DNA of 4,443 nt from Escherichia coli (GTDB lineage Bacteria; Pseudomonadota; Gammaproteobacteria; Enterobacterales; Enterobacteriaceae), in the NCBI RefSeq assembly GCF_003334765.1, contig NZ_QOWT01000067.1, one strand, 5' to 3'. Position 1 is the first letter of the stretch. Every line of letters begins with the position of its first letter. The notes beneath the pieces are model-generated. The model was not told the DNA's origin and did no database searches. It saw nothing but the letters and a program-made list of their open reading frames with translations. This document shows positions 1,341 to 1,430 of this stretch, piece after piece. A program made the translations under genes and the position numbers.

Positions 1341-1376
1341 GATTTGCTCCTTATGAATGAGTTAGCGGTATAAATG

Positions 1377-1407
1377 AAAAAGCCGCGTCTTCTGGAGAAG
1401 ACGCGGC
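1377..1407 (-). terminator. Intrinsic (rho-independent) terminator-like hairpin downstream of the DUF905-like gene
   Basis: Perfect 11-bp stem gccgcgtcttc (1382-1392) / gaagacgcggc (1397-1407) with a 4-nt loop; on the minus strand it is followed immediately by TTTTT (complement of aaaaa 1377-1381). It starts about 23 nt after the stop codon at 1431-1433. Confidence 0.6.
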
Positions 1408-1430
1408 CTGATGGATCAAGTGAATGACGT

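What the first reader, a model, noticed from the sequence alone, without database searches (positions are those of the whole stretch)
1341..1430. A second strong hairpin and T-run sits about 37 nt upstream of the DUF932 start: serial terminators between co-oriented island genes
An 11-bp perfect stem plus TTTTT lies between the DUF905-like and DUF932 genes. Together with the hairpin after agn43, each short intergenic gap in this co-directional cluster carries a terminator-like structure tightly followed by the next RBS. That pattern fits graded read-through (attenuation) or independent internal promoters rather than a simple operon.
Basis: seen in the sequence. Interest (0 to 1): 0.3.

Follow-up and report, generated by a model that had tools for sequence, protein, structure and literature searches.

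The report
Conserved leaky terminator upstream of DUF932
The hairpin is real and looks like an ordinary Rho-independent transcription terminator; nearly every related genomic island in enterobacteria keeps one just upstream of its DUF932 gene, where it probably reduces rather than fully blocks transcription into the genes downstream.

Summary
On the minus (coding) strand there is an 11-bp perfect stem (1407..1397 paired with 1392..1382). It extends to 13 pairs and has a 4-nt loop and a UUUUU run (1381..1377). It sits 21 nt after the DUF905 stop codon and 36 nt before the DUF932 ATG, and is far beyond chance.

It is a canonical intrinsic terminator. I also found that it is not peculiar to this window. 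In 80 DUF932 loci from different Enterobacterales species, about 77 carry a GC-rich hairpin plus T-tract 25-49 nt upstream of the ATG, whichever of at least 12 unrelated genes lies upstream. The stem sequences differ but pairing is kept: 94% of cells are paired and 11 of 12 pairs show compensatory changes. G·U outnumbers A·C by 84 to 24, and UUCG loops are common, so the structure forms in sense-strand RNA.

No σ70-like promoter lies between hairpin and ATG, so DUF932 probably depends on read-through. Published data on sister islands fit partial termination. In E. coli Nissle the downstream DUF932 gene rises together with agn43. In EC958, induction falls from 121-fold to 13-fold along the operon.

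This is a known kind of element and of modest interest. Not every gap has a hairpin, and internal promoters are not supported.

The parts
1431..1664 (-). DUF905 family gene (77 aa), the upstream gene whose transcript meets the hairpin. Its stop codon is at 1433..1431.
   Evidence: ORF list. RefSeq annotates the identical sequence in NZ_CP135671.1 as 'DUF905 family protein', 234 nt.
1397..1409 (-). 5' arm of the terminator hairpin. The core 11 nt are 1407..1397; 1409 and 1408 add an A-U and a G·U pair.
1393..1396 (-). Tetraloop, UCCA on the RNA.
1380..1392 (-). 3' arm of the hairpin. The core is 1392..1382; 1381 and 1380 are the first two U of the run and can extend the stem.
1368..1381 (-). 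U-rich tract UUUUUCAUUUAUAC: five consecutive U (1381..1377), then a distal U-rich stretch. This is the expected site of transcript release.
   Evidence: Sequence. In 77 homologous loci the T fraction is 0.97, 0.90 and 0.81 at positions 1-3 after the stem and 0.74-0.82 at positions 7-9.
1347..1352 (-). Shine-Dalgarno sequence AAGGAG of DUF932, 6 nt before the ATG. It is unpaired in the predicted fold.
522..1340 (-). DUF932 gene (272 aa, PF06067). It is the first gene of the conserved downstream module and is reached only by transcripts that pass the hairpin.
1683..1714 (-). Sister hairpin after agn43 (12 pairs, loop 3) plus UUUUU, about 19 nt before the DUF905 ATG at 1664.
   Evidence: The same element is present in E. 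coli Nissle.

Best explanation
The element is a Rho-independent (intrinsic) transcription terminator that forms in the sense RNA just past the DUF905 stop codon. As RNA polymerase transcribes the GC-rich 11-13 bp hairpin and then the U5 tract, a fraction of complexes release the transcript around 1381..1375.

The rest read through into DUF932 and the genes behind it (antirestriction, RadC/JAB, DUF987, CbeA/CbtA). These genes appear to have no promoter of their own directly upstream.

Functionally, then, it is a leaky intercistronic terminator, or insulator, at the 5' edge of the conserved DUF932 module. It damps transcription arriving from whatever variable cargo gene sits upstream: here DUF905 and phase-variable agn43; in other islands a GTPase or other genes.

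Shown here: the anatomy, the strandedness, the conservation and covariation, and the absence of a σ70-type promoter. Inferred: that termination actually occurs, and that it is partial.
For: Anatomy:
- Canonical form: 11 perfect pairs (13 with extension), 8 G-C pairs, a 4-nt loop, then U5 and a distal U-rich tract. It lies on the coding strand, 21 nt after a stop codon.
- The opposite strand has no T-run after the stem (tail CTGATG).
- It exceeds chance: z = -4.84, and an expectation below 0.03 per window.

Positional conservation:
- In 80 DUF932 loci from different Enterobacterales species, about 77 have a hairpin (-11 to -30 kcal/mol) plus T-tract ending 25-49 nt before the ATG.
- In a blind scan of the whole 6.8-kb loci, 66-77 of 80 sense-strand hits fall in the 100 nt before the ATG. 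The antisense strand shows no such peak.

Independence from the upstream gene:
- The co-oriented upstream ORF belongs to at least 12 unrelated families: DUF905, GTPase, a 157-aa secreted protein and others. In the 65 loci where one was assigned, it ends about 20-95 nt before the hairpin.
- In pairs with unrelated upstream genes, homology begins at the 5' base of the hairpin (L027 versus L046).
- The K-12 paralogues yafZ and yfjQ have equivalent hairpins after the GTPase genes ykfA and yfjP.

Covariation:
- 94.1% of cells are paired, 11 of 12 pairs have double substitutions, and there are 165 compensatory cells. None of 500 shuffles reached this, and slid controls gave 39-54% paired.
- RNAalifold independently finds the same helix, with 8 of 9 pairs compensated.

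RNA on the sense strand:
- G·U pairs number 84 against 24 A·C pairs, and the loop is UUCG in 27 of 77 loci.

No promoter after the hairpin:
- Zero sites in the window, and 2 of 77 homologues with a relaxed match against 16% of shuffles.

Published expression data on sister islands:
- E. coli Nissle has the same order, fluC-hairpin-DUF905-hairpin-DUF932. fluC and this DUF932 gene are up-regulated together by RNA-seq and qPCR (PMC11056357).
- In EC958 oxyR, agn43 rises 121-fold and irmA 12.9-fold, and no co-transcription was seen beyond irmA (PMC4807369). In that island type a terminator-like hairpin follows irmA.
Against: - There is no direct 3'-end mapping for this site. The Term-seq supplements I could search hold nothing for the K-12 paralogues, and Moriel et al. 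could not map the operon's 3' end.
- The U-tract has only five consecutive U, and two of them can pair into the stem extension, so efficiency is uncertain.
- The Nissle data show that transcription does get through, so this is not a full stop. No fold values could be read.
- The alignment used for covariation was built from segments picked by a hairpin finder, which inflates the percentage paired. The bias is limited, because 77 of 80 loci qualified.
- The K-12 yafZ copy has its U-tract displaced by 5 nt, so some copies may be decaying.
- Conservation could partly reflect inheritance together with the adjacent gene.
Confidence: 0.75

Rival explanations
1. It is a regulated attenuator. The hairpin would be one of a series of conditional terminators that a dedicated antitermination mechanism overrides, so that the DUF932-antirestriction-toxin/antitoxin module is switched on in bursts rather than leaking constitutively.
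For: - The hairpin goes with DUF932 rather than with the upstream gene, and no promoter follows it.
- The same island places a terminator 26 nt before the agn43 ATG (L001 10640..10613). K-12 annotates the sRNA IsrC just upstream of flu. flu expression is reported to be controlled by antitermination of that IsrC leader RNA (PMC5389530, citing Wallecha 2014).
- K-12 yafZ RNA was placed among the strongest Rho-controlled targets in a Rho mutant (PMC9160355), so the module is normally held off.
Against: - There is no conserved sequence upstream of the hairpin that could form an alternative antiterminator or a sensor. The upstream flanks are unrelated coding sequences.
- No Rfam family matches.
- No RfaH ops element occurs beyond chance.
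- No candidate antiterminator was identified or tested.
Confidence: 0.12
2. It is mainly an RNA stability or processing element. It would be a 3' stem-loop that protects the DUF905/agn43 transcript from 3' exonucleases, or defines a processed end, rather than a site of polymerase release.
For: A stable GC-rich hairpin lies right after a stop codon, and its structure is conserved. Terminator hairpins generally also stabilise 3' ends (established knowledge).
Against: A protective hairpin does not need the U-tract, yet the T-tract is conserved (T fraction 0.97, 0.90 and 0.81 at positions 1-3). The two roles are not exclusive.
Confidence: 0.07
3. It is a DNA-level element: a protein-binding palindrome, a recombination or cassette boundary, or a single-strand DNA hairpin such as the ssDNA promoters or priming sites of plasmid leading regions.
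For: - It marks the junction between variable cargo and the conserved module.
- DUF905 and DUF932 homologues lie in the leading region of IncF conjugative plasmids.
Against: - The stem sequence is not conserved; only the pairing is.
- The G·U over A·C bias (84 to 24) and the UUCG loops point to RNA made from one strand.
- The T-tract is on one side only.
- At 26-30 nt and without -35/-10 boxes it is unlike Frpo-type ssDNA promoters.
- The IncF DUF932 homologue that I read lacks the upstream hairpin.
Confidence: 0.03
4. The gap holds an independent promoter for DUF932, and the hairpin merely ends the upstream transcription unit completely.
For: A strong Shine-Dalgarno sequence and a separate gap suggest an autonomous gene. 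Strain 042 has an internal promoter elsewhere in this kind of cluster, in the yeeR-irmA gap (PMC9431211).
Against: - Only 36 nt separate the T-run from the ATG.
- No σ70-like site is found in the window, and only 2 of 77 homologues have one, fewer than shuffled controls.
- In Nissle, DUF932 rises together with fluC.
Confidence: 0.04

Closest known systems
Canonical Rho-independent (intrinsic) terminators, in particular partial intra-operon terminators that set expression ratios between neighbouring genes
   Same: GC-rich stem of 11-13 bp, a tetraloop, and a U-tract on the transcribed strand. It lies about 20 nt after a stop codon, is unidirectional, and is followed directly by the next cistron's ribosome-binding site.
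   Different: It is conserved at one fixed position relative to the downstream gene (DUF932), while the upstream gene varies among at least 12 families. Terminators are usually thought of as belonging to the gene they follow.
agn43 (flu) leader terminator / IsrC RNA in the same island family
   Same: A hairpin plus U-run lies about 26 nt before a start codon in the same co-oriented cluster (L001 10640..10613). K-12 annotates IsrC just upstream of flu. flu is reported to be controlled by antitermination of IsrC (PMC5389530).
   Different: That terminator lies in a dedicated, long non-coding leader downstream of a mapped promoter. The one studied here follows a coding gene and has no conserved leader upstream of it. 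The IsrC-type terminator itself is deleted in this window.
[quoted passage not shown]
   Same: Same island family and the same layout: hairpin, U-run, ribosome-binding site, then the DUF905 ATG (L086). Experiments found no co-transcription past irmA (PMC4807369).
   Different: It has a different stem sequence and sits one gene further upstream. The authors did not map or name it.
Frpo-type single-strand DNA promoters of conjugative-plasmid leading regions
   Same: They lie in the neighbourhood of DUF905 and DUF932 homologues and antirestriction genes.
   Different: Frpo elements are long imperfect hairpins that rebuild -35/-10 boxes (established knowledge). The element here is a 26-30 nt RNA-type hairpin with a U-tract and no promoter boxes. 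The IncF DUF932 homologue that I read lacks it.

Membership tests
Rho-independent (intrinsic) terminator | GC-rich stem-loop with a short loop in the nascent RNA | tested here: met
   11 perfect pairs (13 with extension), 8 G-C pairs, 4-nt loop; hairpin about -25 kcal/mol; z = -4.84 against shuffles.
Rho-independent (intrinsic) terminator | U-tract immediately 3' of the stem on the transcribed strand | tested here: met
   UUUUU at 1381..1377, then CAUUUAU. The opposite strand has no T-run. The T-tract is conserved in 77 homologues.
Rho-independent (intrinsic) terminator | Lies downstream of a stop codon in the sense orientation, far enough for the hairpin to form free of ribosomes | tested here: met
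   21 nt after the DUF905 stop codon. The gap was about 20-95 nt in the 65 homologous loci where an upstream ORF was assigned.
Rho-independent (intrinsic) terminator | Structure maintained by selection (compensatory changes, strand-specific G·U pairs) | tested here: met
   94.1% paired; 11 of 12 pairs compensated; 0 of 500 shuffles as good. RNAalifold finds the same helix. G·U 84 versus A·C 24.
Rho-independent (intrinsic) terminator | RNA 3' ends or polymerase release at the U-tract | not testable with these tools
   Only indirect evidence from published expression data on sister islands. The Term-seq supplements searched had no entry.
Regulated leader attenuator / riboswitch-type element | Conserved upstream sequence able to form an alternative (antiterminator) structure or bind a ligand or factor | tested here: not met
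   Sequence 5' of the hairpin is unrelated between loci and is the 3' end of different coding genes. Rfam gave only a chance-level NsiR1 hit, on the other hairpin.
Regulated leader attenuator / riboswitch-type element | Terminator lies between the promoter and the regulated gene, with no promoter after it | tested here: met
   No σ70-like site in the window, and only 2 of 77 homologues have one in the hairpin-to-ATG segment.
RfaH/ops-dependent antitermination operon | ops element GGCGGTAGnnTG in the transcribed leader | tested here: not met
   Only two 1-mismatch matches, both inside the agn43 coding sequence, at chance frequency.
Frpo-type ssDNA promoter of plasmid leading regions | Long imperfect hairpin that reconstitutes -35 and -10 hexamers | tested here: not met
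   The hairpin is 26-30 nt and has no promoter hexamers. The one IncF DUF932 homologue examined has no such hairpin upstream.
Any curated Rfam RNA family | Match at the family's gathering score | tested here: not met
   No match at 1341-1430. The only hit in the window is NsiR1, at 21.4 bits against a gathering score of 39 (E = 0.62), on the agn43 hairpin.

The most novel reading that the evidence does not exclude
The hairpin would be one member of a coordinated series of conditional terminators: the agn43 leader/IsrC, before DUF905, before DUF932 and before DUF4942. A dedicated antitermination mechanism would override them. The module resembling a plasmid leading region (DUF932, antirestriction, RadC, CbeA/CbtA) would then stay silent in the resident chromosome and be expressed in bursts, for example when phase-ON agn43 transcription is high or after the island is transferred or excised.
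Probability: 0.12. Interest if true: 0.55.

Novelty: new member of a known kind. Interest (0 to 1): 0.27.

Why it matters
These CP4-type islands are present in most E. coli genomes. This particular intergenic region occurs in 4382 of 5426 complete genomes, with a median of 3 copies, and is unannotated. The islands carry adhesins, antirestriction genes and toxin-antitoxin pairs.

The results indicate that DUF932 has no nearby σ70-type promoter of its own and sits behind a conserved leaky terminator. That would explain why the downstream genes are weakly expressed. It would also explain why they rise together with phase-variable agn43 in E. coli Nissle, and why induction falls stepwise along the cluster in EC958.

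It also gives annotators a simple marker for the 5' boundary of the conserved module. It does not reveal a new mechanism.

Tried and rejected
- **Rfam, permissive mode:** only a chance-level NsiR1 hit, on the other hairpin.
- **NCBIfam on the window proteins and the upstream-gene families:** no hits. A first attempt failed on a frame error.
- **PDB sequence search of the 157-aa upstream family,** to test whether it is IrmA: no hit, so it is not IrmA. IrmA was later located in the H10407 island.
- **Term-seq evidence in K-12:** supplements of PMC7815308 have no entry for yafZ, ykfA, yfjP, yfjQ, yeeR or ykfF. No supplements are held for PMC9023263. Wallecha 2014 (PMC4135670) is not held.
- **RfaH ops element:** chance level.
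- **σ70 promoter between hairpin and ATG:** absent.
- **General DUF932 feature that also holds on plasmids:** the one IncF leading-region homologue I read (63% identical) lacks the upstream hairpin, although it has a terminator downstream.
- **Antisense peak at +400 to +499 inside DUF932 in the positional scan:** these are weak, irregular folds of a conserved coding stretch, not a real element.
- **Does hairpin type follow only the upstream gene or only the DUF932 clade?** Neither cleanly; the pattern is mosaic.

Full report
**Layout of the window.** All genes are on the minus strand. Naming follows the RefSeq annotation of an essentially identical record, NZ_CP135671.1 (locus L001). In transcription order:
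- the 3' end of a GTPase gene (from beyond 4443 down to 4193);
- the agn43 regulatory region with its GATC sites;
- a 5'-truncated agn43 (4023..1735);
- DUF905 (1664..1431);
- DUF932 (1340..522);
- an antirestriction gene (431 to the window end).

**The observation.** Read on the minus strand, the 1430..1341 gap contains AGGCCGCGTCTTC-UCCA-GAAGACGCGGCUU followed by UUUCAUUUAU.
- The perfect stem is 11 bp (1407..1397 with 1392..1382), and the loop is 1396..1393.
- A G·U and an A-U pair extend it to 13 pairs.
- The U-run is 1381..1377.
- The hairpin starts 21 nt after the DUF905 stop codon. The U-run ends 36 nt before the DUF932 ATG, and AAGGAG lies 6 nt before that ATG.
- The region folds at -26.8 kcal/mol against -14.2 for shuffles (z = -4.84, 0 of 200 as good).
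- Perfect stems of 11 bp or more arise 0.03 times per shuffled window. Stems of 9 bp or more with a T-rich tail arise 0.005 times.
- The opposite strand has no T-run after the stem.

The companion hairpin after agn43 (1714..1688 plus UUUUU) is also real. One overstatement: the DUF932-to-antirestriction gap has no such structure.

**It is not peculiar to this window.** The K-12 DUF932 paralogues yafZ and yfjQ also have a hairpin plus T-tract about 40 nt before the ATG. Their stem sequences differ, and the upstream gene is a GTPase (ykfA, yfjP) rather than DUF905.

I then fetched 80 DUF932 loci, drawn from a collection with one genome per species across the Enterobacterales, with proteins 72-94% identical to the query.
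- About 77 of 80 have a GC-rich hairpin (-11 to -30 kcal/mol) followed by a T-tract ending 25-49 nt before the ATG. L050 and L061 have none, and L020 and L063 have weak ones.
- A blind scan of the complete 6.8-kb loci put 66-77 of the sense-strand hits in the 100 nt before the ATG.
- Minor peaks lie 300-400 nt upstream (before DUF905, as in the window) and just after the DUF932 stop codon. The antisense strand has no comparable peak.

**Independence from the upstream gene.** The co-oriented upstream ORF belongs to at least 12 unrelated families:

| Upstream family | Loci |
|---|---|
| DUF905 | 18 |
| 157-aa secreted protein | 12 |
| 139-163-aa family | 10 |
| GTPase | 8 |
| 104-aa family | 7 |
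| others | remainder |

In the 65 loci where an upstream ORF was assigned, it ends about 20-95 nt before the hairpin. Identical hairpins occur behind unrelated genes. In such pairs (L027 versus L046) similarity starts exactly at the 5' base of the hairpin. Hairpin type tracks neither the upstream family nor the DUF932 clade cleanly. The element is best described as the 5' edge of the conserved DUF932 module.

**The structure, not the sequence, is conserved, and it acts as RNA.**
- On an 81-sequence alignment, the 12-pair helix is paired in 94.1% of cells, and 11 of 12 pairs show double substitutions (165 cells). None of 500 shuffles reaches these values, and slid controls give 39-54% paired.
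- RNAalifold predicts the same helix on its own, with 8 of 9 pairs compensated.
- G·U pairs outnumber A·C pairs 84 to 24, and 27 of 77 loops are UUCG. This places the functional structure in RNA made from the coding strand.
- The T fraction is 0.97, 0.90 and 0.81 at positions 1-3 after the stem and rises again at positions 7-9.
- Caveat: the aligned segments were chosen by a hairpin finder. Because 77 of 80 loci qualified, the bias is small.

**How DUF932 is transcribed.** The tool found no σ70-like site anywhere in the window. Only 2 of 77 homologous hairpin-to-ATG segments have even a relaxed match, against 16% of shuffled controls. With 36 nt between the U-run and the ATG there is little room for a promoter. 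The simplest reading is that DUF932 and the genes behind it are reached by read-through.

**Experimental data from sister islands.**
- E. coli Nissle has the same order: fluC, hairpin, DUF905 (frameshifted), hairpin, DUF932.
- In a plasmid-cured Nissle derivative, fluC is strongly up-regulated, and 'yfjQ' is one of only four up-regulated genes, confirmed by qPCR (PMC11056357). The qPCR primer matches the DUF932 gene directly downstream of fluC. Transcription therefore passes both hairpins.
- In EC958 oxyR, agn43 rises 121-fold and irmA 12.9-fold within one transcript. No co-transcription with genes beyond irmA was seen (PMC4807369).
- In that island type (ETEC H10407), the agn43-yeeR hairpin has no U-tract. 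A terminator-like hairpin follows irmA, and the DUF905-DUF932 hairpin is present.
- K-12 yafZ RNA was grouped among the strongest Rho-controlled targets in a Rho mutant. The module is normally silenced and can be reached from upstream (PMC9160355).

Together these data fit graded, partial termination along the cluster.

**Series of terminators.** In the full-length island L001, strong sense-strand terminator-like hairpins lie in five places:
- 26 nt before the agn43 ATG;
- before DUF905;
- before DUF932;
- about 30 nt before DUF4942;
- at the island end.

K-12 annotates the sRNA IsrC just upstream of flu, so the first hairpin probably corresponds to its terminator. flu is reported to be controlled by antitermination of IsrC (PMC5389530, citing Wallecha 2014). 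This keeps open a regulated-antitermination reading of the whole series. However, I found no conserved upstream sensor sequence, no Rfam match and no ops element.

**Comparison with plasmids.** DUF932 homologues (about 60-63% identical) occur on more than 5000 plasmids, mostly conjugative. In the IncF plasmid I examined, the homologue lies in the leading region together with DUF905, psiB and hok. That homologue lacks the upstream GC hairpin but has a terminator downstream. The hairpin thus appears to be a trait of the chromosomal-island lineage, and it is unlike the long Frpo ssDNA promoters.

**Verdict.** This is a genuine, strongly supported intrinsic terminator. It acts most likely as a leaky insulator or attenuator at the 5' border of the DUF932 module.

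The 'graded read-through' reading is supported. The 'independent promoters' alternative and the claim that 'each gap' has a hairpin are not.

It is a new, well-conserved member of a known kind of element and of modest interest. Direct 3'-end mapping is still missing.

Noticed in passing
window 3976-3977 (junction); corresponds to L001 9978..10736: The window lacks 761 bp that are present in the otherwise 99.9%-identical record NZ_CP135671.1. The deletion removes the agn43 start codon, signal peptide and about 200 codons. It also removes 155 nt of the 5' UTR, including the terminator-like hairpin just upstream of the agn43 ATG. The junction shows 2-nt (AT) microhomology. agn43 is therefore a 5'-truncated pseudogene here. 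The ORF starting at 4023 begins with unrelated residues from a chance in-frame ATG.
   Followed up: yes
window 1683-1734, compared with L003 8660-8780 and L086 4985-5125 and 8169-8246: The hairpin after agn43 shares its core (CCCGGTCATCATGACCGGG) with the agn43-yeeR hairpin of K-12 and H10407, which has no U-tract. In the window-type island, yeeR and irmA are absent. The hairpin is joined to a U-run and DUF905 leader that resemble the sequence following irmA. This suggests a deletion between the two hairpins that turned a plain hairpin into a terminator-like one.
   Followed up: partly
window 4030-4080: The cluster of three GATC sites (the Dam/OxyR phase-variation switch of agn43) is retained upstream of the truncated gene. 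One substitution relative to L001 lies next to the middle GATC (window 4055, T versus G).
   Followed up: no
L001 3817-3843 and 2777-2803 (minus strand): Further strong terminator-like hairpins lie in the same island: one about 30 nt before the DUF4942 gene start and one after its end. The layout of a terminator tightly followed by the next gene therefore recurs beyond the window.
   Followed up: partly
L087 (IncF plasmid NZ_CP023850.1), 1-5822: DUF905 and DUF932 homologues sit in the leading region of an IncF conjugative plasmid (with a ParB-like gene, psiB and hok, near oriT/traM). The chromosomal DUF905-DUF932-antirestriction block therefore resembles a plasmid leading region. More than 5000 plasmids carry a DUF932 homologue.
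   Followed up: partly
L020, L026, L027, L032, L036, L039, L042, L044 and others, about +860 to +872 from the DUF932 ATG: In 18 of the 80 loci a second conserved terminator-like hairpin (for example GGCCTTGCCAATAAACCGGCGAGGCT plus TTTTT) follows the DUF932 stop codon. The window's island has none at that position.
   Followed up: no
L002 8036-8084 (K-12, upstream of yafZ): In the K-12 yafZ copy of the hairpin, AUCCC separates the stem from the U-run, so this copy looks like a weakened or decayed terminator. The yfjQ copy is intact.
   Followed up: no
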